A stretch of DNA of 64,000 bases from an uncultured Chloroflexia bacterium (lineage in GTDB: Bacteria; Chloroflexota; Chloroflexia; QHBQ01; JADMIH01), in NCBI GenBank assembly GCA_963797095.1, contig CAWCNY010000002.1, positions 10,063 through 74,062 of the forward strand, in the 5' to 3' direction. Shown piece after piece: positions 6,659-37,512 of this stretch. The position numbers were made by a program, and so were the translations under genes. The notes under the pieces are model-generated. The model ran no database searches. It saw nothing but the letters and a program-made list of their open reading frames with translations, and was not told the DNA's origin. Numbering within the stretch: position 1 is the stretch's first letter; every line of letters begins with the position of its first letter.

Positions 6659-7042
6659 CTAATCGTCGCTTGAATAGGCAATGGTGCTCAACAGGGCGTT
6701 CTCGGCCTGGCGCGAGTCGAGCCTGGTGTGCTGCACCACAACCGGTACGTCCGATTCAATACTACTTGCATAATTCGTGCCGACAGGTATTGGCTCGGGG
6801 TCGTTCAGATTGTTGAATCGAAAATGCCCTGTACGTCTCGCGGGTACAGTCACCTTATATGGTCCCGCCGGTTCGCGGTCGCTGTAGAAAATGGTTACTT
6901 CAATATGAGCGTCTTGCTCCCCCGCATTCAAGATGCAGAACGCTTCATGGCTTACCATCTCCGGGGAAGGTCCATTGCTCCACCCAGGGATATAGCCCTC
7001 CGCGATGGCCCAACGTTTGCGGCCTATCGGTGGTCCAGTCAT
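6659..7042 (-). CDS. Sensory rhodopsin transducer (ASRT)-like protein
   Basis: Strong similarity to the Anabaena ASRT core (WAIAEGYIP...HEAxCxLNAGxxDAxxExTIxxSDxEPxGPYxVTVPARRT...FNxLxDPEPIPxxTxYASxIxSDVPxVVQHTRLDSRQAENALxSTIAY). The ATG at 7042 with RBS GAGGTG gives about 127 aa. The track ORF extends upstream to 7129. Confidence 0.7.
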   Translation of the reverse strand: MTGPPIGRKRWAIAEGYIPGWSNGPSPEMVSHEAFCILNAGEQDAHIEVTIFYSDREPAGPYKVTVPARRTGHFRFNNLNDPEPIPVGTNYASSIESDVPVVVQHTRLDSRQAENALLSTIAYSSDD

Positions 7043-7242
7043 ATTCAGTTCACCTCTTCTAATTAGGGGTTGTTCCTGGTACATGGCAGGTCCAGCAAAA
7101 ACCGTGCCCCCGAAGAGGGGACATACCAAAATTACGCTGCGAATCCTGTAGATCTACAGCGATTACCGGGAGATAGCTTGTCGCCGTGGGGACGAACAAT
7201 AACGCAGAGGCAATAGTAGCGCCTCATATTGGGAGTGAACGA

Positions 7243-8115
7243 CTAAGCGCTTGGAATCACTCCAAGAATCGTGTCCCGGACAACAGGCCACTCTTTCGAT
7301 ATCGGGTCTATGACCTCGAAATGTCCCGTGCCCTTCAGTGTGACCAACTCCGCATCGTCGCCGAGCGCCCTGGCACGCTCCACGAAAAGCTTGCTGATCT
7401 CGTAGGGCACATTGGGATCGTTTGTGCCGTGTACCAGTCTCTGCTTCACTCCGATGGGCAATAAGTCTCCAGGCGATGCGGTTTCATATCGCTCAGACAC
7501 CTCTTCAGGCGATCCCCCCATCAGGTCAACCACCACCCCCTGGCTCAGCTTCATCCGCCAGCAGAGCCGCAGGTCAACCACACCTGCCAGCGGCACGCAC
7601 GCCTCCACTGGCAGCGGGTCGGCCATACAGAGTGGGTCTCCCTCAGGGATCTTGTGCCTGCCCGCCAGCCACGCAGCCAGGTGCCCGCCAGCCGAGTGCC
7701 CCGTCACTACCACACGCCCCAGGTCCAGGTTGTGCTCCCCCGCAATTTCGCGCAGGTAGTCGCAAGCCATACCCACATCCAGCATAGTATTGGGCCAGCC
7801 GCCCCCTTCGTCACCCAGTCGCCTGTATTCAATGCTCCAGGTAGCCACACCGCTGGATGTGAGCGCCGCGCACAGATATCCAATATGGTCCAGGTTGTAC
7901 TTCGCCCGCCAGAAGCCCCCATGTATCACAATCACGATGGGGAACGGACCCTTTGCATCTCCCTTGGGCAAACGCAAATCGCCGAACTGCAAAGGGTCCT
8001 CACCGTAGCTGATACGGAAATCGGCTTCCGGTGGCATTACCGAAAACAACCGCTCGGCCATCGCATTCAATTGCGTGGCCTTGAATAATCTACTGAACCC
8101 CGAAAAAAAGCCCAT
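7243..8115 (-). CDS. Alpha/beta-hydrolase fold esterase (carboxylesterase/arylformamidase-like)
   Basis: HGGFW oxyanion motif and GHSAGG nucleophile elbow. Confidence 0.7.
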   Translation of the reverse strand: MGFFSGFSRLFKATQLNAMAERLFSVMPPEADFRISYGEDPLQFGDLRLPKGDAKGPFPIVIVIHGGFWRAKYNLDHIGYLCAALTSSGVATWSIEYRRLGDEGGGWPNTMLDVGMACDYLREIAGEHNLDLGRVVVTGHSAGGHLAAWLAGRHKIPEGDPLCMADPLPVEACVPLAGVVDLRLCWRMKLSQGVVVDLMGGSPEEVSERYETASPGDLLPIGVKQRLVHGTNDPNVPYEISKLFVERARALGDDAELVTLKGTGHFEVIDPISKEWPVVRDTILGVIPSA

Positions 8116-8211
8116 AGTCTGCTCCTGGTAGCCAGTAGTCGGTAGTTAGCGGGCGGCAGACCGCGCGTAGTTCCCGGTTCTTGGTTTCTAGTTGCTGATT
8201 TTGACTACCGA

Positions 8212-9588
8212 TTACCAATCAACGTCGTCTCGAACAAGCGGCATAGTCATACACCTCGGCCCACCCCTGGCCCTTGACAGTTCAAGGCCGCTGATCTTGA
8301 TAGCGTATTTTCTCTCTGGGTGCGATCTGATCTCCTCGATCAATGGCTGGTTTGTCACCCAATCCCTTTCGCTCCCTGCCTCTACCTGCCAGCGTACGAT
8401 ATCCCCCTCCTGCACAATCCTGTATCCTGCTGCCTCAAGCGCCTTGTAAGTCTGTTCATTGCGTTCGTAGCCTATAATTAGCCCTGGCCTCAGGCAAAAG
8501 GCGTTGGCCCCGTCGGTCCATTGCTCGCGCTCCTGGTATAGCCTGCTGTTCCCTCCGCAAAAGATCGGGTTGAGCGGCCTTCCCAAGTCCTCTTCCAGGC
8601 ACGCCACCAGCGATTTCCGAACAGGGGCAAGATGGGTTGTGCCATCCGGCTTGATGCTGATTCGCACGATGCCCACCTGCTCGCCGCCGCCAGGCATGAT
8701 CAACGGCGGGTAGACCAGCATATCGTCTTGCGACAACATAGTGAAGATCGTATCAAGGTGCATGGTCGAGCGCTGTTTGGGCATGATCACAGCGTAGACT
8801 GTCTTTACTTGTCCGCCTTTCGCCAGGCCCTTTGCTAACTGGTCCACCGCCTCCGGGCTGGTCCGCTCCGAGATCCCCACAAGCACCAGATCGGGCCTTA
8901 TTACCAGCACATCCCCGCCCTCGATAGTAGCCCTCTCATCCTCAGGCAGTGGGCTTGACAGGTTATATGGCGAGAGCTTATCGAACCACATAGGTGGTCG
9001 CGACCCGTTCTCCCCACCGGCTTTTGCATGCACCCTATACAGATAGCGCACCAGCAGCGCCTCACGCTGCCTTGCCGGGAACGCCATGTTCCCCACCAGC
9101 AGGCCATCATTCACCACCGCGCATGGGTCGCGCATAAACATCAGGTTCGGGATCGGCGGCAACTGATAGGGCATCTCCGACAGGTAAGAGGTCAAATCAG
9201 ATCGCCTGCCTGGGTCCATTTTCCCCTCGATAAACCAGTGTGCCAGCTTGTACGGCTCGGCATCCCGCAACTCTCGCCACAGGTTGTCGCGCTGCGTATC
9301 GGTCCCGCCTTGCAGCTTGCACACGCTCTCAACCATTGCCTGCCGCGCGCCGTCGTCCTCCAGCACCTCCCGCAACATCTCCGCCGAATCGAGCACATCC
9401 TCAGGCGGCACGATCACCGAAATGATACGCTTGAAAGCTTCGTGCTCGTGCTTCGCCAGGTCCACATACAGGATGTCGTCGAATAAGAGATCGTGACGTA
9501 GCGCGGGCGTCATGCGCCTGATCTCCTGGCCCGGCGTGTGGACCACAACCCTTTTGAGCTTACCGATCTCTGAGGTAACGTTCAGCAT
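8212..9588 (-). CDS. arcA: Arginine deiminase (amidinotransferase superfamily) with canonical catalytic residues
   Basis: N-terminal SEIGKLKRVVVHTPGQE, FMRD and MHLDT motifs and a C-terminal GGPRCMTMPLVRD catalytic Cys motif. Start taken as ATG at 9588, overlapping the upstream stop (TAATG). Confidence 0.75.
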   Translation of the reverse strand: MLNVTSEIGKLKRVVVHTPGQEIRRMTPALRHDLLFDDILYVDLAKHEHEAFKRIISVIVPPEDVLDSAEMLREVLEDDGARQAMVESVCKLQGGTDTQRDNLWRELRDAEPYKLAHWFIEGKMDPGRRSDLTSYLSEMPYQLPPIPNLMFMRDPCAVVNDGLLVGNMAFPARQREALLVRYLYRVHAKAGGENGSRPPMWFDKLSPYNLSSPLPEDERATIEGGDVLVIRPDLVLVGISERTSPEAVDQLAKGLAKGGQVKTVYAVIMPKQRSTMHLDTIFTMLSQDDMLVYPPLIMPGGGEQVGIVRISIKPDGTTHLAPVRKSLVACLEEDLGRPLNPIFCGGNSRLYQEREQWTDGANAFCLRPGLIIGYERNEQTYKALEAAGYRIVQEGDIVRWQVEAGSERDWVTNQPLIEEIRSHPERKYAIKISGLELSRARGGPRCMTMPLVRDDVDW

Positions 9589-11195
9589 TACTCCCTCACC
9601 AGTGGCAGCACCAGCGAATGCGGTCCACCGTGCCCCCGCGCCAATTCCGACCCCTTTACTTTCAACACCCATTTCTCCTCGTCGTCCAGGCTCAATGTCA
9701 CATCCCCCGTTTGCACATCGTTGATATCGATCACCCTGTAACCTCTCTGCGCAAGTTCGGCGATGGTGCGATCCGCCGACCTGTAAATTATCACCTTACC
9801 CGGCGCGACGGTCAGCAAGTTCACCGCGCTGAACCACTGTTCCCTCTGCTGGTCGGTGGGATCTTGCCCTCCACACAGGATGGGTGTCAGGTCAATCCCG
9901 TCCTTGCGCAGGCTTTCGAAGAAATCCGCCGATCTGCTTGGCCTCACAGGGCCTTCCCCCAACTCTACCCGCACCACATCCACCGAGGCCGGGCCGTATG
10001 GCTCAAATACGGGCGGGTAGATCACGCACTCAGACAGGCTGATCACCCCCAGCACGCTATCCAGGTGGTTGAACCCGGCGGGTAGGCGTAACACATACAG
10101 AACGACCTTCCGCCCATCCTTGATCGCCTGCGCGCGCCATATATCCGCAAGCCTCTGCACCGATTCCATGCTGGTGCGCTCTCCCACTCCCAGCACGGTC
10201 AGGTCATCGCGCAGTTGCACCACGTTACCCCCCTCCATGTACAGCAAAGGAGAGGTGGCTATAGGCCATGCCGGGTCGTTCACCCGCGCATCGGCCCATG
10301 TCCAGCGAGGCACGTCCCTAAATCGTGGGTGATTCTCGTGCACAAAGTCGAGCAGGAGCGGCTCTCGCGTGCGCCCCGGCCCTGCCATCCGGCCCATCAG
10401 CAGCCCATTGCCCACTACAGTGCCAACGTCATGTATGAACATCAGGTTGGGGAGGGGAGTCAAATAGAAAAGCTTGCCCTCGATGAACCGCCTCAGCGCG
10501 TCGGTGTCTTCCTCGGCTATAGGCAGGCCCTTGCCGGGTCTTCGATCATGTCCGTTGTCCTGCGGCCCCGGCCTTTGAGAGGGAGACACGCCACCCACCC
10601 TCGATTCTATGCCCTCCACCAACTCCTCGGCCAGCGATGAGAAATCGCCCGCTTCGCACCATCTAGCCAGCCGGTTTTGCAGGTATGTAAGCTCATCTAC
10701 ATCTTCAACGGCAAGAGGCTTCGTAATAGTACGCTTGCCTCCCGGCCCGCTGGTCCGCAGTTGCGCCAGCAATCCCGGTAATGAGCCGGGCGCTGCTGCC
10801 TCAGGGTCGCCTTCAGGGTCTTGCATGTACTGAGGCCACCCATGCCCTTGAAACCACCTTACCATCACCTCAAGCTGCCCGATCCTTTGTTCCACGGGCG
10901 GCATATCCTGTTCCAATAGCCGCACTTGCGAGATCAGCCTGTCTCGTTCTTCATCACTAGCTGCTGCCAGCGCCTCGGTCAGCAGCGTCTCGAACCTGTG
11001 GATCTTCACCCCCAGGTGATTTTGCAGCACATCGGCCAGCCAGTCGTGCTCCTGCTGGGCGTGCTCGTCGAAAAGGAGATCGTCAAAGAGGAAATAATCG
11101 CGGGTGGAAGGGGTCATCCGCACCAGTTCCCGTCCGGGCCGGTGCATAATCGCCTCGCGGAGGCGTCCGTATTCGGAGGTAATTCTCACGTTCAT
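9588..11195 (-). CDS. Arginine-deiminase-family paralog with a large insertion and no active-site Cys (GGPHSLVLP instead of GGPRCMTMP)
   Basis: N-terminal ITSEYGRLREAIMHRPGRE, with FIHD and FNHLD retained. The C-terminal motif has RCM replaced by HSL. Stop overlaps the downstream ADI start. Confidence 0.65.
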   Translation of the reverse strand: MNVRITSEYGRLREAIMHRPGRELVRMTPSTRDYFLFDDLLFDEHAQQEHDWLADVLQNHLGVKIHRFETLLTEALAAASDEERDRLISQVRLLEQDMPPVEQRIGQLEVMVRWFQGHGWPQYMQDPEGDPEAAAPGSLPGLLAQLRTSGPGGKRTITKPLAVEDVDELTYLQNRLARWCEAGDFSSLAEELVEGIESRVGGVSPSQRPGPQDNGHDRRPGKGLPIAEEDTDALRRFIEGKLFYLTPLPNLMFIHDVGTVVGNGLLMGRMAGPGRTREPLLLDFVHENHPRFRDVPRWTWADARVNDPAWPIATSPLLYMEGGNVVQLRDDLTVLGVGERTSMESVQRLADIWRAQAIKDGRKVVLYVLRLPAGFNHLDSVLGVISLSECVIYPPVFEPYGPASVDVVRVELGEGPVRPSRSADFFESLRKDGIDLTPILCGGQDPTDQQREQWFSAVNLLTVAPGKVIIYRSADRTIAELAQRGYRVIDINDVQTGDVTLSLDDEEKWVLKVKGSELARGHGGPHSLVLPLVRE

Positions 11196-11365
11196 GGCAA
11201 TCTACGACGCTGTAGTATCCTGTGGGCTGGGCCAGCCTGCTCAGAAGCATCTCGACCATTTTACCGTACTTGCCACTCCCCCGCCATACACAACCCGTCA
11301 GCGCATGTTCAGACCTGCGGTGAATCTTCTCCACCTGGATCTGAATGCTCGCACCCCTCAATACG

Positions 11366-12253
11366 CTATGAAAGCTCAGGATTGCCCTCTCTCCCTGGCG
11401 CGGCCCGAAAATCGCCCGATCTGCTCGGGTAAGTTGCGGGGTCAAATATATCAAAGCTCCCCGGCCCGGGCAAAGTAATACTCAAGCAATGCAAAGCCAG
11501 GCGCACCCACATCCGCTCCCTCAATTGCTCGATATCCTGATACCCCGCGCACCCCAAAAAGCGCCCCCACAACTCCGGCGGATAATACCACCAGAGCAAC
11601 GCTCCCAGGTCCAGCGCCGGGTCATCAAGCCCCATTGCATCCAGGTCTACAAGGTAAATGCGCCCATCCGTCGCGAATATCCAGTTGTCCCAGCAAATAT
11701 CTCCGTGCGAGGCCACCAACCCATCGCCCTCGAATTGTCCTATCTTCTGCTCAAGCCGGTCAAGCGAAGCCTCAACAAAATCGGCCACCTCAGCCGCAGC
11801 CCCGTCCCTAACCTGCTCCCAGCGAGCCTGCACCCGCCCTACTGCCCGAATCCCCGCCTCTGCATACCCCTCCGGCACCACAGGGAGCAGCACGCCCAGC
11901 ACACCCGGCGCGCGATGCATCTCACCTACGATACGCGCCACATTCTCCAATCTTTCCCTGTAATCCAGGCGGTCAGGATGCTTTCCATCGATAAACTCTT
12001 GTACCACCACAACACTTCTATCCTCAAGCGCCTCAACTCCCACCACAGGCGGACAAAGTCCCACCTCCGACATAGCAAGCACCCGCCCAACATCCGCCCC
12101 CACCTTAATAAACCAACGCCTCTCTCCATCGTAAGCCACATAAGTCTCCTGCCCGCTCCCGCGCGGCAAAGCCAGGCTCCACCCCAGCGTACCCGAAGTC
12201 CGCTCCAGGCAAGCCCCAACCTCAACCTCATGCAGGCGACGCTCAAACCCCAT
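11366..12253 (-). CDS. Aminoglycoside-phosphotransferase (APH)-family kinase
   Basis: HGDICWDNW catalytic-loop motif and DLD motif. The track ORF extends to 12475, but the upstream part is encoded by a 20-bp tandem repeat (TIRHWWG twice). ATG at 12253 gives a typical APH N-terminus. Confidence 0.6.
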   Translation of the reverse strand: MGFERRLHEVEVGACLERTSGTLGWSLALPRGSGQETYVAYDGERRWFIKVGADVGRVLAMSEVGLCPPVVGVEALEDRSVVVVQEFIDGKHPDRLDYRERLENVARIVGEMHRAPGVLGVLLPVVPEGYAEAGIRAVGRVQARWEQVRDGAAAEVADFVEASLDRLEQKIGQFEGDGLVASHGDICWDNWIFATDGRIYLVDLDAMGLDDPALDLGALLWWYYPPELWGRFLGCAGYQDIEQLRERMWVRLALHCLSITLPGPGSFDIFDPATYPSRSGDFRAAPGREGNPELS

Positions 12254-12492
12254 CCCCAACAAATCCCCTACCCCCAAAAACCACCCGAAAGTACACCCCA
12301 AAACCTGTCCAGTTTTCCCCCACCAATGCCTTATAGTTCCCCACCAATGCCTAATAGTTAATGAGGGCAAGACCAGCTGTATAACCCCACAAACACCAGA
12401 ATCTCGATCAACCACTGCCCAAAGGTCCACACACTCTAAGCCAATAGTCCGAACCGGCCACTCGTCACTCGTCACTCGTCACTCGTCACTCG

Positions 12493-15400
12493 TCACTCAT
12501 ACCGCAACGCCTCAGCCGGGTAGATGTTCGCCGCTTGACGAGCCGGGGCCACCGTCGTCACAAGCGACACCAGGTAAGCCACCCCGATGATCAGGATAAG
12601 TTGCCCCCAGGGCGCTTGCCAGGTAAGTGTAGGCGAGTCGTTCTTGAGGAACTGCACAAAGTTCCACGAAGTAATGAGGCCAAGCCCGGTGCCGACCAGT
12701 ATGCCCAGCAGAGCGATGAACGACGACTCCAACAGGAAGGATGTGCCAACCATGCCACGCTGATAACCGATCGCCCTCAATACCCCTATCTGCTGGCGGC
12801 GTTCCACTACGGCCCGCGTACTGATCACACCCAGCGCCGCCACTCCAACCAGCAGGCCAAGCGCCATAAAACCCTGCAACAGCCCGTTTAGTGTATCGCC
12901 TGCTGCCTGCTGCTGCCGGATCGTATCCGAAATCACCGTAGGCTCAAGCCCATTGTTGAGGAAGGCTGTGCCTAGAGCACGGCGCAACTGCCCGGCATCC
13001 TCTCCTGGCTTGATGCGGAAGAAATATGTGCTGGGAGCTACGGGCACGCTCGGCGGTGCCACCTGTGAAGCCAGCGCCCTGTTCACATACATCCCGGTGT
13101 AGAACTGAGCATCCCGGCTCAACACCCCGATCACCTTCACCTTGACCGTGGGCGCGTTCGGCAAACCGGGCACTCTCATCTCGATCTCCGGAACCTTTGT
13201 CATCACAGGCTTGTTCGGGTCGACTCCCGTGATCACGAACGTACCACCGGCCCCGCCGAAAGTGGCTGTGGCCTGTCCGATGATCACAGGCAGACTATCC
13301 ACCACCACCAGTGTGGGGTCTTTGGCAACCGCCTCCCAGACCTCACGGTCCGAGTTGTACCCCTCGGCTCGCATACCTAGCTCAAACTCGTTGTTGTTGA
13401 TAAACTCATCGTCCACCAGCCGCGCGTTATAGTACCGCCACCCTGCCGCCAGGTCGGGGTTGTTTGCCAGTTGCTGCTGGTTACGAGTGTTGCTGGTGGT
13501 AGTAATCCCGTTTGTCTGGAGCATCTCCATCGGCACAAGCGTCTGCCCCGTCACCGACGCGAACTTCCCGCTCAGGTTGGGGTTGGCAGCTATAGCGGCG
13601 TTGATGTCAGGGATGGGATTGGAGTAAGACGCTGCGGCCTGTATCTGGTAGCCGCCTGTAATGTTGGGCTTGTTGGGGTCTGCCTGCTGGTTCAGATTCG
13701 TCAGTACCGACATCAGGATCAGCACGAACATGATCAGGGCGAACATGGCAATCGCCATCCCCGTGCGGAAAATAGCCGCCGCCGGGTAAGCCACCGCCGT
13801 CTTGAGCACCGGCCTCATGCGGCCAACTCGCCCAAGGAGCATGCTCATCACTCCCAGCAGGATATCGGTGTTGTAGATGATCACCCACACAGCCCCGGCA
13901 ACCATAGCGAGGCCCGCCACGAAAAAATACTCGATGCCAAGCCCGAAGGCCGGGATGCCGAACCAAGCGTGCAGGGTATCGACCGGCAAGGCCCAGTAGA
14001 TCACCAGCAACAGACCTGTGATCGTATAAGCGATGCGGTCTCGGCGTGCCGGGCGCACTCTGCGGCGCGCCAGGAACCATCGTATCGAGAAGCCGAAACC
14101 AATGATGAAGAGCGTGGCTCCTGTATGGAAGAAGAAGCCACCATCGGTCCACCAACCAAGGGCCATAAGGAGGACACCCAGCGTGCACGCTACCGGCCCG
14201 CTGAAAAAGACCGCCAGCAGCAGACCAATAAACGCTCCTATACATCCCATAGGCTGACCCGCGCCCAACAAATCAAAAGGCTCGATTAACCGGTCAAGAA
14301 GCCGCTTCTCAGGCTTGGGCGCGTCCGGGATGTCGCGAATAGCCGCCACGATGTTGAGCCGGGACACCCGCACAGCCGAGACCGCCACCGTCAGGAATGT
14401 GACGAGCATTCCCAGGCAGTAGGCCACGATGATCGAGCGAATCTCGATGTGTGGAGTGAGATTGAAACCGAACGAGCCGAACACACCGGAGATGAGGCCG
14501 ACCATCGCGAAGCCAACGCCTACACCGAGGGCCGCACCAACGGCGGCAGCCGCCAGATCGTAGGCCATTCCCTCGAACACAAACATCTGAGTAAGCTGGC
14601 CGCGCTGAGTGCCGATAGCGCGGGCCATGCCCATTTCGCTCTTGCGCTCAGCGGCCAGCATTGTAAAGATAAGGAAGATAAGAAGCACCCCGGCGGCGAT
14701 GGAGAAGAGCGCCGTGCCCAGGAAGATGGTGGTAAAGAGATTGCCGATCAGGTTGGCGGTGTCCAGGTTGTCCTGCTTCACCTCCGAGATGCTGTAGATG
14801 CTCGTATCCAGGATGGTTTTCAACTTATCCGACACTTCATCGCTGTACTTTAGCCCATCCAACTCACCGCCCTTCAACGAGATGTTGATAACGCTGATCT
14901 GTCCTGGGCTGTTATACAGTTGCTGCATATCGCTCAGTGTGATGAAGCACACCGGATACTGGCTGCTAGGTGAGGCAATACCGAGGATGTCGCGCACGGT
15001 GAAGGTCATCGTCTGCCCGTTCACCACAATGTTGACCTTGTGCCCTATCTGCGCATTGAGCTTGTCGGCGGCAGACTTGTCAAGCAGGACCTGGCCCGAC
15101 TGGAGATCAGCCGGGTTGAACGATCCCCCGGCCAGGGTGGTAAAGTCTCCTGTGGTCTGGCGGGCATCGGCGGTAATACCCGTGACGAAGGTTTGCCCCG
15201 ATCCCTGTTGCGAATCCGTATCGATCAAGGGACCAATCTGCTGTAACTCGGCAGACCAACCATCGATCAGGTCGTCATTGCCCCATTTGGTCTTGAGCTG
15301 ATCCAGGAAGCTTGCGTCAAAGGTAGGCTGAGGTCGGTTGAAGTCGGGCGGGCCGTTAAAGGCAATGATCGGGTTGACCTTCTCAATCGTGATGTCCGTG

Positions 15401-27254: not shown

Positions 27255-27709
27255 ATCCTTAACCAACAAGAAACCCCGGTTGCACGAGGCTTCCAGGGGT
27301 CAGATGATGTAGCAGAGTGGAGACGTGGCGGGGCCATGCCTCAATGCCTTTGGAGAGCCTGACGCGTAGCCCATCCCTCAATGGGGAGTGAGTGCTGTGT
27401 CGTGGTCTCACGCGGCTCTGCTGGACTTTCTTCCATCCGGACTATACCGTCGGCCCCGGCTTCCCACCGGATCCTACCTTGCGGCTCGCGGGCTTGGCCT
27501 TTTATGCCTTACCGCCGATCGGGAATTTCACCCTGCCCTGAAAGTCTGCTATATTCTATTAGCCTAAGTATAAAGATTCAGGGCGTAAAATTCAAGGTCC
27601 TCAGAGGCACTTGTTTTTATCTAAATGGAGTCGGATGATTCGTCAAAGTTCCGGCAAGTCGCAATATTGGGTTGTCAAATGACTCCCCCTTATGCACGGA
27701 ACTTGGCGA

Positions 27710-37435: not shown

Positions 37436-37512
37436 TGGCGCGCCCGGAGGGATTCAAACCCCCGACCCTCTGATCCGAAGTCAGATGCTCTAGTTCGCTG
37501 AGCTACGGGCGC
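37436..37512 (-). tRNA. tRNA-Arg (anticodon TCG), CCA encoded
   Basis: Minus-strand sequence GCGCCCG-TA-GCTC-AGCGAACTA-GAGC-A-TCTGA-CTTCGGA-TCAGA-GGGTC-GGGGG-TTTGAAT-CCCTC-CGGGCGC-G-CCA folds as a cloverleaf with a 7-bp acceptor and 5-bp anticodon stem. The loop CUUCGGA gives anticodon UCG. The T-loop U56 is paired by a D-loop A at the 19 position (covariation). Confidence 0.85.

What the first reader, a model, noticed from the sequence alone, without database searches (positions are those of the whole stretch)
8212..11195. Translationally coupled arginine-deiminase paralog pair in which the upstream copy has lost the catalytic cysteine (GGPRCMTMP changed to GGPHSLVLP)
Both proteins have the ADI-specific N-terminal SEIGKL-type motif and the His/Asp catalytic positions. 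The upstream 535-aa paralog has a roughly 100-aa insertion and Ser in place of the nucleophilic Cys. Its stop overlaps the downstream start (TAATG). It could be a pseudoenzyme partner or regulator, a scaffold, or an enzyme with altered chemistry. No arcB, arcC or arcD genes are nearby, so this is not a classic ADI pathway operon.
Basis: partly seen in the sequence, partly recalled or inferred. Interest (0 to 1): 0.6.

Follow-up and report, generated by a model that had tools for sequence, protein, structure and literature searches.

The report
Cysteine-less arginine deiminase partner gene
Two overlapping arginine-deiminase genes sit side by side, and the first belongs to an old, well-conserved Chloroflexota branch that carries serine instead of the catalytic cysteine and is repeatedly coupled or fused to a normal copy, so it is most likely a non-catalytic arginine-binding partner, not a dying gene.

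Summary
On the minus strand, a 535-aa ADI-family gene (9588-11195, ...GHGGPHSLVLP) overlaps by TAATG a 458-aa ADI-family gene (8212-9588, ...RARGGPRCMTMP).

The upstream copy is not a pseudogene. It has 64 intact orthologue clusters, all with Ser, and dN/dS is about 0.06-0.08. The Ser codon has even switched between the AGY and TCN codon families.

It belongs to a single Ser-type clade (92% bootstrap). That clade differs consistently from Cys-type ADIs at only four columns, all at active-site motifs: C->S, the next residue M->L, EGGD->EGGN, and the Arg401-equivalent R->H. All arginine-binding residues are kept.

Ser-type genes lie downstream of argS on the same strand in every locus with upstream sequence except this window. 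In the long-form lineages they are followed by, or fused to (7 fusion clusters), a Cys-type ADI. Deep-branching orthologous loci continue with arcC and arcB.

Best reading (about 0.45): a non-catalytic, arginine-binding subunit or regulator of the downstream ADI. Rivals are an ArgRS-linked, stand-alone arginine-binding protein (0.25) and a real Ser-dependent enzyme (0.18). I found no prior description. I rate it a new variant of a known kind, of moderate interest.

The parts
9588..11195 (-). UP: Ser-type ADI-family protein, 535 aa. Probably a non-catalytic, arginine-binding paralogue.
   Evidence: ORF and translation. PF02274 E 8e-55. Scores 208 bits against the 489.1 cut-off of TIGR01078 arcA. 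64 of 64 orthologue clusters carry Ser. dN/dS 0.06-0.08. AF2 pLDDT 84, pTM 0.85. Best structural matches are solved ADIs, target-normalised TM 0.83-0.88.
8212..9588 (-). DN: Cys-type ADI-family protein, 458 aa. The presumed catalytic arginine deiminase.
   Evidence: PF02274 E 2.5e-73. Aligns end to end with P. aeruginosa ADI 1RXX, E 1.3e-57. All catalytic and substrate-binding residues are present. 74 of 74 family members carry RARGG.RCM. Scores 316 bits, below the arcA equivalog cut-off of 489.1.
9586..9590 (-). TAATG stop/start overlap of UP and DN.
   Evidence: Read directly. Similar overlaps occur in relatives: L039 TAATG, L018 TGATG, L021 ATGA, L027 GTGA.
9615..9617 (-). Ser527 codon (TCG) at the position of the catalytic Cys.
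   Evidence: The codon is TCG/TCC in the near clade and AGC/AGT in the deep clade, the T. terrenum group and the fusions.
9630..9632 (-). His522 at the position of the Arg401-equivalent of Cys-type ADIs.
   Evidence: Class-discriminating column: H in 82% of Ser-type sequences, R in 87% of Cys-type. H in 64 of 64 UP-family members.
10224..10226 (-). Asn324: the EGGD motif of ADIs is changed to EGGN.
   Evidence: Class-discriminating column: N in 89% of Ser-type sequences, D in 100% of Cys-type.
10059..10067 (-). His377-Leu-Asp379 (HLD), the retained catalytic His and guanidinium-binding Asp.
   Evidence: Invariant in A1 and in the combined alignment.
10488..11024 (-). Enlarged helical-bundle domain of UP (residues 58-236), containing two low-confidence loops.
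   Evidence: pLDDT is below 50 in 118-160 and 213-218, and low through about 200-230. Residues 101-140 are nevertheless conserved in the family.
8251..8253 (-). Cys446 codon (TGT) of DN, the catalytic nucleophile.
7243..8115 (-). BD-FAE-family alpha/beta hydrolase, the conserved third gene after DN in the near clade.
   Evidence: PF20434 E 1.9e-26. Found directly after DN in L002-L005, L007-L012, L014, L020 and L039.

Best explanation
UP is a non-catalytic member of the arginine deiminase family. It keeps an intact L-arginine (or citrulline) binding pocket but cannot form the covalent thiouronium intermediate, because the nucleophilic Cys is Ser. It works together with DN, the catalytically competent Cys-type ADI encoded immediately downstream, most likely as the second subunit type of a hetero-oligomeric ADI. 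ADIs are normally homo-dimers or homo-tetramers. In that complex UP would stabilise the enzyme or make its activity depend on arginine occupancy.

**Shown:** the sequence facts, conservation, selection, synteny, the fusions and the ADI fold.

**Inferred:** arginine binding, lack of catalysis, physical association with DN, and a regulatory effect.
For: 1. Ser replaces the catalytic Cys in 64 of 64 orthologue clusters, and in every member of a monophyletic Ser-type clade with 92/100 bootstrap support.
2. In the ADI superfamily the Cys is essential. GAS ADI C401A is inactive (PMC3735194). Engineered Cys->Ser proteins were crystallised with ligand bound: DDAH C249S with citrulline (1H70) and ArgZ C264S with substrate (6JV1), both seen as titles.
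3. The residues that bind the guanidinium group (Asp256, Asp379) and the alpha-carboxylate (Arg275/277, Arg340), together with Asn250 and Phe253, are invariant in UP orthologues and nearly so across the Ser-type clade. In contrast, the catalytic His has been lost in three outlying Ser-type lineages: P0244 H->F, P0275 H->Y, P0341 H->A. This is the pattern of a binding site retained without catalysis.
4. There is strong purifying selection, so UP is not a pseudogene (dN/dS 0.06-0.08).
5. There is a Rosetta-stone fusion. Seven distinct protein clusters of 1005-1172 aa, 46-51% identical to P0241, carry a Ser-type domain followed by a Cys-type domain in the same order as the genes. They are found on independent contigs from JGI, ENA, NCBI and Logan.
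6. The Ser-type gene is followed by a Cys-type gene in 20 of the 22 UP-family loci with enough downstream sequence, and also in the P0244 and P0279 lineages. The stop and start codons overlap in several lineages.
7. Deep-clade orthologous loci continue with bona fide arcC and arcB. This ties the pair to arginine catabolism.
8. ADIs are oligomeric: L. lactis ArcA and P. aeruginosa ADI are tetramers, and GAS ADI is a monomer-dimer mixture (PMC7818446). A duplicated subunit could therefore replace one partner.
Against: - No direct evidence of UP-DN contact was obtained. The AF2 model of a natural fusion was too poor to judge domain packing (pLDDT 61, pTM 0.47, only 7 sequences).
- Three lineages of a short Ser-type subclade, including cultured Thermobaculum terrenum, have argS followed 3-7 nt later by the Ser-type gene. 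No Cys-type ADI lies within the available flanks.
- In one genome UP and DN are more than 100 kb apart. L013 has no DN within 10 kb.
- In at least 14 relatives, 0.5-3 kb of unrelated genes separate UP and DN. Translational coupling is therefore dispensable.
- The catalytic His/Glu pair is invariant in the UP family. Ser itself has been maintained across a switch between codon families (AGY to TCN). The only class-defining substitutions are four co-ordinated active-site changes. All this shows that the site is under positive functional constraint, which is also what an altered enzyme would show.
Confidence: 0.45

Rival explanations
1. UP is a stand-alone arginine-binding protein (a sensor, buffer or hand-off factor). 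Its real functional partner is the arginyl-tRNA synthetase or arginine homeostasis in general. On this view its position next to DN is only the legacy of a tandem duplication inside an ancestral argS-arcA cluster.
For: - argS lies upstream on the same strand in 26 of 26 UP-family loci with upstream sequence. It is also upstream in T. terrenum (L054), L055 and L059, with only 3-7 nt between the genes, and it lies near the fusions.
- The short subclade has no Cys-type neighbour.
- UP and DN can be unlinked or separated by inserted genes.
- The binding residues are conserved.
Against: - A lone Cys-type ADI also follows argS (L050), and argS-arcA adjacency is known in Lactococcus lactis (PMC5300872, PMC6586332). 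The argS linkage is therefore probably ancestral to the whole ADI group and not specific to the Ser type.
- Seven Ser-type/Cys-type fusion clusters argue for joint action with the catalytic copy.
- In this window argS is absent, yet the pair is kept and overlaps.
Confidence: 0.25
2. UP is a real enzyme with altered chemistry. Ser527 would be activated by the retained His377/Glu321 pair, or water would attack directly. The substrate would be arginine or an arginine analogue, for example a more electrophilic guanidino compound such as canavanine.
For: - His377, Glu321, Asp256 and Asp379 are invariant in the UP family and in the N-terminal halves of the fusions.
- Ser has been kept through a switch between non-adjacent codon families. 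This implies selection for Ser itself.
- The only columns that separate the Ser-type from the Cys-type class are four active-site positions that changed together: S/C, L/M, N/D and H/R. That looks like a remodelled site, not a decayed one.
Against: - No Ser-dependent member of the guanidino-modifying (pentein) superfamily is known to me. This rests on my own knowledge, and searches found nothing.
- Engineered Cys->Ser proteins in the superfamily were crystallised with ligand bound (1H70, 6JV1; titles). That they are inactive traps is my inference from this, not something the titles state.
- Three Ser-type lineages have lost the catalytic His.
- A hydroxyl is a poor nucleophile for a resonance-stabilised guanidinium group (established chemistry).
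Confidence: 0.18
3. UP is a decaying pseudogene, or the Ser is a sequencing or assembly error.
For: There is only the loss of the Cys. One orthologue cluster (P0067) has a frameshifted tail.
Against: - The ORF is an intact 535 codons.
- 64 independent orthologue clusters carry the same motif.
- dN/dS is 0.06-0.08.
- The AF2 model is confident.
- The Ser codon differs from any Cys codon by two bases in this window (TCG).
Confidence: 0.01

Closest known systems
Arginine deiminase ArcA (EC 3.5.3.6; PF02274, TIGR01078). Solved examples: P. aeruginosa 1RXX/2A9G, S. pyogenes 4BOF, M. arginini 1LXY.
   Same: - The fold is the same: target-normalised TM 0.83-0.88 for the UP model, and DN aligns over its full length.
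- The N-terminal SE.G.L motif, the FxRD, EGG and HLD motifs and the C-terminal GG..x motif are shared.
- DN has the full Cys-His-Glu triad, both Asp and both Arg.
- Deep-clade orthologues sit in argS-...-arcC-arcB clusters.
   Different: - UP has Ser for the nucleophilic Cys, Asn for the Asp of EGGD, and His for the Arg401-equivalent.
- UP has about 117 extra residues in the helical domain.
- Both proteins have an extra segment before the last strand.
- Both score below the arcA equivalog cut-off: 208 and 316 bits against 489.1.
- Known ADIs are homo-oligomers from one gene. Here there are two diverged genes, or one fused gene.
Engineered Cys->Ser proteins of the same superfamily, crystallised with ligand bound: DDAH C249S with citrulline (1H70) and ArgZ C264S with substrate (6JV1).
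   Same: The substitution is the same, at the same structural position. Those proteins hold ligand in the pocket (PDB titles).
   Different: Those are laboratory mutants. UP is a natural, anciently fixed variant with three accompanying active-site changes.
Catalytically dead paralogues that partner the active enzyme ('prozyme' type). Examples are trypanosomatid AdoMetDC prozyme and HisZ with HisG. These examples rest on my own knowledge and were not checked here.
   Same: - UP is a paralogue of the enzyme.
- An essential catalytic residue is lost.
- It is under purifying selection.
- It is encoded with the active copy.
   Different: Physical association and activation have not been demonstrated for UP and DN. 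Some Ser-type proteins occur without an adjacent active copy.
PADI6, an inactive member of the peptidyl-arginine deiminases (PMC11402830, abstract seen).
   Same: It is a member of the wider deiminase superfamily that was inactive in vitro and has an unknown role.
   Different: It is a eukaryotic protein-modifying enzyme family with a different domain architecture. It is not encoded next to an active partner.
Lactococcus lactis arc cluster: argS upstream of arcA-arcB-arcD1-arcC1 (PMC5300872, PMC6586332).
   Same: The arginyl-tRNA synthetase gene lies directly upstream of the ADI gene.
   Different: It has a single Cys-type arcA and no Ser-type copy. An antiporter gene is present there, but none was seen here.

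Membership tests
Arginine deiminase family (Pfam PF02274) | Domain match above the gathering score | tested here: met
   UP 186.8 bits and DN 247.7 bits, against a cut-off of 22.8.
Arginine deiminase ArcA, functional equivalog (TIGR01078 / NF002381) | Score at or above the curated equivalog cut-off | tested here: not met
   UP 208 bits and DN 316 bits, against 489.1. For NF002381, 206 and 332 bits against 414.
Arginine deiminase ArcA | Catalytic Cys-His-Glu triad (GAS ADI Cys401/His275/Glu220, PMC3735194) | tested here: not met
   For UP: Ser527 replaces the Cys, while His377 and Glu321 are present. For DN the triad is complete, with Cys446, His277 and Glu223.
Arginine deiminase ArcA | Guanidinium-binding Asp pair and carboxylate-binding Arg pair | tested here: met
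   UP has Asp256, Asp379, Arg275/277 and Arg340, invariant in A1. DN has the equivalents.
Arginine deiminase ArcA | ADI fold: a five-bladed beta-beta-alpha-beta propeller plus a helical bundle | tested here: met
   UP AF2 model has pLDDT 84 and pTM 0.85. Foldseek top hits are 4BOF, 2A9G, 1LXY and 4E4J, E 1e-31 to 1e-24. DN was not modelled, but it aligns to 1RXX residues 11-421.
ADI pathway (arc) gene cluster | arcA encoded with arcB (catabolic OTCase) and arcC (carbamate kinase) | tested here: not met
   For the window there is no arcB or arcC hit in 64 kb. The feature is met in deep-clade orthologous loci L022, L025, L026 and L027/L041, where arcC scores 401 bits against 358 and OTCase 424 against 281. 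L015 has them upstream on the opposite strand.
Arginine deiminase ArcA | Converts L-arginine to L-citrulline and ammonia | not testable with these tools
   This needs an enzyme assay of UP, DN and the pair.
Pseudoenzyme partner of an active paralogue ('prozyme' type) | Essential catalytic residue lost and the loss fixed across orthologues | tested here: met
   64 of 64 UP-family clusters and 28 of 28 sampled Ser-type sequences carry Ser.
Pseudoenzyme partner of an active paralogue ('prozyme' type) | Maintained by purifying selection | tested here: met
   dN/dS is 0.056 and 0.084 for UP, against 0.041 and 0.088 for DN. dS is saturated.
Pseudoenzyme partner of an active paralogue ('prozyme' type) | Physically associates with the active paralogue | tested here: inconclusive
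   Indirect support comes from seven natural Ser-type/Cys-type fusion clusters, from conserved adjacency and from stop/start overlaps. The AF2 model of fusion P0241 was uninformative (pTM 0.47). No multimer prediction tool was available.
Pseudoenzyme partner of an active paralogue ('prozyme' type) | Changes the activity or stability of the active paralogue | not testable with these tools
   This needs co-expression and kinetic measurements.

The most novel reading that the evidence does not exclude
The Ser-type proteins would be the first guanidino-group-modifying (pentein) enzymes that work without a cysteine. Ser527 would be activated by the retained His/Glu pair in a remodelled pocket (EGGN, His in place of the Arg401-equivalent, Leu after Ser). 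The substrate would be arginine or an arginine analogue. The encoding next to ArgRS would reflect a role in protecting arginine charging, for example from a toxic analogue such as canavanine.
Probability: 0.12. Interest if true: 0.8.

Novelty: new variant of a known kind. Interest (0 to 1): 0.55.

Why it matters
- ADI is a textbook enzyme and a clinical biologic. All described forms are homo-oligomers of one Cys-dependent subunit.
- A conserved, selectable Ser-type branch that is paired or fused with a normal ADI and tied to argS would add a regulatory or structural subunit to the ADI pathway. If the Ser is catalytic, it would add new chemistry instead.
- It would also correct a systematic database error. 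These proteins, including Thermobaculum terrenum WP_012874395.1, are annotated simply as 'arginine deiminase'.
- The question is directly testable, because a cultured organism carries a Ser-type gene and natural fusions exist.

Tried and rejected
1. **AF2 of a natural fusion.** I modelled P0241 with the 7-fusion alignment A3, hoping that pTM would report domain packing. The model was poor (pLDDT 61, pTM 0.47) and therefore uninformative.
2. **Deepening that alignment.** I tried adding single-domain sequences. MAFFT placed all of them on the C-terminal half under three settings, so I abandoned this.
3. **Artificial UP+DN fusion.** I did not submit one, because the tool refuses sequences that are neither from the window nor from the homologue search.
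4. **Another Cys in the pocket.** Rejected. UP has only Cys180, Cys390 and Cys441. Cys390 and Cys441 sit in columns that are also Cys in most Cys-type ADIs, and Cys180 lies in the variable insertion.
5. **Pseudogene.** Rejected.
6. **Recent local duplication.** Rejected. UP groups with other Ser-type proteins and not with DN. This rests on a neighbour-joining tree only; no maximum-likelihood tool was available.
7. **Literature.** Searches for a Ser-type or inactive ADI paralogue found nothing. The library lacks most subscription papers.
8. **Metagenome scan for the short subclade.** It returned only 4 loci. That was enough to add one more argS/Ser-type case (L059), but not enough for statistics.
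9. **RNA elements.** Rfam and tRNA scans of the window found no regulatory RNA near the pair.
10. **Promoters and terminators.** The scan was not above shuffled expectation.
Full report
**1. Observation**

The two genes lie on the minus strand.
- UP occupies 9588-11195 and encodes 535 aa, from MNVRITSEYGRLREA to ELARGHGGPHSLVLPLVRE.
- DN occupies 8212-9588 and encodes 458 aa, from MLNVTSEIGKLKRV to RARGGPRCMTMPLVRDDVDW.
- UP's TAA and DN's ATG share one base, giving TAATG at 9590-9586.
- Both match Pfam ADI PF02274. They are 32% identical to each other over the propeller core and 40% over the N-terminal 55 residues.
- Neither reaches NCBI's equivalog cut-off for arcA: 208 and 316 bits against 489.1. 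Both are therefore divergent members of the family.
- The stated motifs, the roughly 100-aa insertion (UP 58-236 against DN 57-118) and the Cys-to-Ser change are all as described.

**2. Residue mapping**

I aligned both proteins to solved ADIs (P. aeruginosa 1RXX/2A9G, S. pyogenes 4BOF, M. arginini 1LXY) and built an 82-sequence alignment. Ser527 of UP falls exactly in the column of the catalytic Cys, which is Cys446 in DN.

UP keeps the following equivalents:
- Asn, Phe and Asp of the PNxxFxRD motif (Asn250, Phe253, Asp256);
- the carboxylate-binding arginines (Arg275/277 and Arg340);
- the Glu of EGG (Glu321);
- the HxD pair (His377, Asp379).

In S. pyogenes ADI, Ala substitution of D166, E220, H275, D277 or C401 each abolishes activity, and Glu220/His275/Cys401 are proposed as the catalytic triad (PMC3735194). 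DN has the complete set.

UP has only three cysteines. Cys390 and Cys441 are in columns that are also Cys in most Cys-type ADIs, and Cys180 lies in the variable insertion.

**3. UP is a conserved gene, not a relic**

- A search of 5.8 billion proteins found 68 clusters of UP orthologues down to 45% identity. The next hits drop sharply to ordinary ADIs at about 30%.
- All 64 clusters with an intact C-terminus have His at the Arg401-equivalent position and Ser at the nucleophile position. All 74 DN-family members with the motif have Arg...Arg-Cys-Met.
- dN/dS between the window and two relatives is 0.056 and 0.084 for UP, and 0.041 and 0.088 for DN. dS is saturated, so these are rough values, but pN is far below pS.
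- The Ser codon is TCG or TCC in the clade containing the window. It is AGC or AGT in the deep UP clade, the Thermobaculum group, the P0244 and P0279 lineages and the fusions.
- AGY and TCN codons are not connected by a single substitution. Ser as such has therefore been maintained by selection.

**4. A wider Ser-type clade with a four-residue signature**

An exhaustive HMMER search of 1.84 billion representatives found further Ser-type proteins outside the UP family: P0244, P0245, P0246, P0256, P0275, P0279 and P0341.

In a neighbour-joining tree of 414 well-occupied columns:
- all Ser-type sequences form one clade (92/100 bootstrap);
- UP does not group with DN;
- DN groups with other long Cys-type ADIs.

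The Cys-to-Ser change is therefore old and probably happened once.

Only four alignment columns separate Ser-type from Cys-type at the 80% level or above. All four lie at active-site motifs:
- Ser against Cys;
- the following Leu against Met;
- Asn against Asp in EGGD;
- His against Arg at the Arg401-equivalent.

From my own knowledge of the P. aeruginosa enzyme, that Arg is an active-site gating residue. I could not retrieve the primary papers.

Three outlying Ser-type lineages have also lost the catalytic His.

One Ser-type cluster contains the protein of cultured Thermobaculum terrenum ATCC BAA-798. It is WP_012874395.1 and is annotated 'arginine deiminase'.

**5. Genomic context**

In 28 Chloroflexia MAG loci the order argS - UP - DN on one strand is the rule.
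- argS encodes a long ArgRS of 735-810 aa that passes the TIGR00456 cut-off. It precedes UP in 26 of 26 loci that have upstream sequence. The gaps range from 3 nt to 2.8 kb.
- DN follows UP in 20 of the 22 loci with enough downstream sequence.
- The exceptions are L006 and L013. L042, a metagenome contig whose ArgRS is 91% identical to that of L006, also lacks an adjacent DN: there the DN-type gene lies more than 100 kb from UP on the same contig.

Downstream context differs by clade.
- In the deep-branching clade (UP about 48% identical) the cluster continues with carbamate kinase and ornithine carbamoyltransferase. Both pass equivalog cut-offs. That is a classical ADI pathway.
- In the clade containing the window, a BD-FAE alpha/beta hydrolase follows DN instead.
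- The window itself has lost argS and has no arcB or arcC within 64 kb.

Context outside the UP family:
- P0244 and P0279 are each followed by a Cys-type ADI.
- Three lineages of a short (421-432 aa) Ser-type subclade, including T. terrenum, have argS followed 3-7 nt later by the Ser-type gene. No Cys-type ADI lies within the available flanks.
- A lone Cys-type ADI also follows argS in L050.
- argS upstream of arcA is known in Lactococcus lactis (PMC5300872, PMC6586332).

The argS linkage is therefore probably ancestral to this ADI group.

**6. Natural fusions**

Seven protein clusters (P0241, P0242, P0385-P0389) are 1005-1172 aa long and 46-51% identical to P0241. Each consists of a Ser-type domain (...AHGGPRSLVLP), a linker of roughly 40-60 residues, and a Cys-type domain (...ARGGPRCM.MP).

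The order is the same as the gene order. P0241 occurs on contigs from three independent sources.

In the tree, the N-terminal halves fall in the Ser-type clade and the C-terminal halves among the Cys-type ADIs.

These fusion genes also lie near a long argS, and one has OTCase and a carbamate-kinase fragment 8 kb downstream.

A fusion that is conserved across lineages this divergent is the strongest available indication that the two domain types work in one complex at 1:1 stoichiometry.

**7. Structure**

- AF2 on a 95-sequence alignment gives a confident UP model (pLDDT 84, pTM 0.85).
- Its best PDB matches are the solved ADIs (E 1e-31 to 1e-24, target-normalised TM 0.83-0.88).
- The extra length consists of added helices plus two low-confidence loops, roughly 116-160 and 196-227.
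- Residues 101-140 are well conserved in the family despite low pLDDT. This could mark a segment that folds on a partner, but that is inference only.

**8. Mechanism**

*Shown:*
- an intact, selected ADI fold;
- a full arginine-recognition set;
- no Cys;
- a co-ordinated four-residue change at the active site;
- repeated coupling and fusion to a Cys-type ADI;
- an arginine-related neighbourhood (argS, arcC, arcB).

*Inferred:* UP binds arginine or citrulline but does not turn it over, and it acts as the second subunit type of an ADI that is otherwise a homo-oligomer. Tetramers and dimers are documented for ArcA (PMC7818446). UP could stabilise DN or gate it by arginine occupancy.

I give this reading about 0.45.

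The main rival (0.25) is a stand-alone arginine-binding protein tied to ArgRS. It is favoured by the short subclade and by the looseness of the UP-DN junction.

The second rival (0.18) is true Ser-dependent or water-direct catalysis. It is favoured by the invariant His/Glu pair, by the maintenance of Ser across codon families and by the remodelled, not decayed, pocket. It is disfavoured by the behaviour of Cys-to-Ser mutants in the superfamily (1H70, 6JV1) and by the loss of His in some Ser-type lineages.

**9. Comparison and novelty**

- DN works like ArcA and probably is one. It is a divergent member, below the equivalog score, with an extra roughly 37-aa segment before the last strand.
- UP is a member of the ADI family by fold and sequence. 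It fails the defining catalytic-triad test, so it should not be filed as an arginine deiminase.
- UP resembles pseudoenzyme partners of active paralogues. Association and effect are untested.
- Five literature searches found no description of a Ser-type ADI or an ADI heteromer. The library omits much subscription literature.
- I rate it a new variant of a known kind.

**10. What did not work**

- The AF2 model of fusion P0241 from only seven sequences was poor (pLDDT 61, pTM 0.47). It says nothing about domain packing.
- Attempts to deepen that alignment failed, because MAFFT stacked all single-domain sequences on one half.
- The metagenome scan for the short subclade returned only four loci.
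- No regulatory RNA or convincing promoter was found near the pair.

Noticed in passing
L002-L028, between the UP and DN orthologues (e.g. L004 11590-14158, L008 11596-14744, L012 11566-12553): The UP-DN junction is an insertion hot spot. At least 14 relatives carry 0.5-3.1 kb of unrelated genes there: DUF4926-like small proteins, IS200/RAYT-like transposases (L002, L019), a PIN/VapBC pair and a nitroreductase (L004), and a beta-propeller protein (L008). Duplicated gene ends remain. L004 13461-13610 repeats the DN N-terminus, and an ORF at L012 11916-12056 ends in UP's GGPHSLMLPLVRD.
   Followed up: partly
L039 4972-7197, L041 4751-7090, L043 1837-4194, L051 4896-7328: The arginyl-tRNA synthetase next to these ADI genes is unusually long (735-810 aa, against about 600 aa in Thermobaculum, L054). 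It still passes the argS equivalog cut-off. The extra segments were not characterised.
   Followed up: partly
L043 4277-6748; L051 7771-8979: One or two EF-Tu genes, and in L043 also a PrmA-like methyltransferase, lie between argS and the fused Ser-type/Cys-type ADI gene.
   Followed up: no
proteins P0390-P0501: ADI-ornithine carbamoyltransferase fusion proteins of 770-789 aa (PF02274 plus PF00185/PF02729) are very abundant in public metagenomes. These are a different kind of ADI fusion.
   Followed up: no
protein P0379: A 796-aa protein carries a roughly 400-aa N-terminal extension of unidentified family fused to a Cys-type ADI domain.
   Followed up: no
window 9588-11195 (-): The public gene call for UP (P0001, 519 aa) starts at Met17. 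It therefore omits the conserved N-terminal TSEYGRLREA motif that all orthologues and ADIs share. The start is probably mis-annotated.
   Followed up: yes
window 7243-8115 (-): A BD-FAE-family alpha/beta hydrolase is conserved directly after DN in the near clade. It takes the place held by arcC/arcB in the deep clade. Whether it acts on citrulline or a related product is unknown.
   Followed up: partly
window 11366-12475 (-): This APH-family phosphotransferase ORF has an odd tandem WWGTIRHWWGK repeat near its N-terminus. It occupies the position where relatives have argS.
   Followed up: no
window 27421-27549 (-): An FMN riboswitch is present (RF00050, 111.6 bits).
   Followed up: no
window 37436-37512 (-): This tRNA-Arg (anticodon TCG) is the only tRNA gene in the window.
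   Followed up: no
window 6659-7129 (-): This is an Anabaena sensory rhodopsin transducer (ASRT, PF07100) homologue, E 2.7e-54.
   Followed up: no
L054 (Thermobaculum terrenum CP001825.1 469470-490756), genes at 8191-12583: In a cultured organism the genes argS, Ser-type ADI and a sulfatase follow one another with 4-nt and 0-nt gaps, which looks like an operon.
   Followed up: partly
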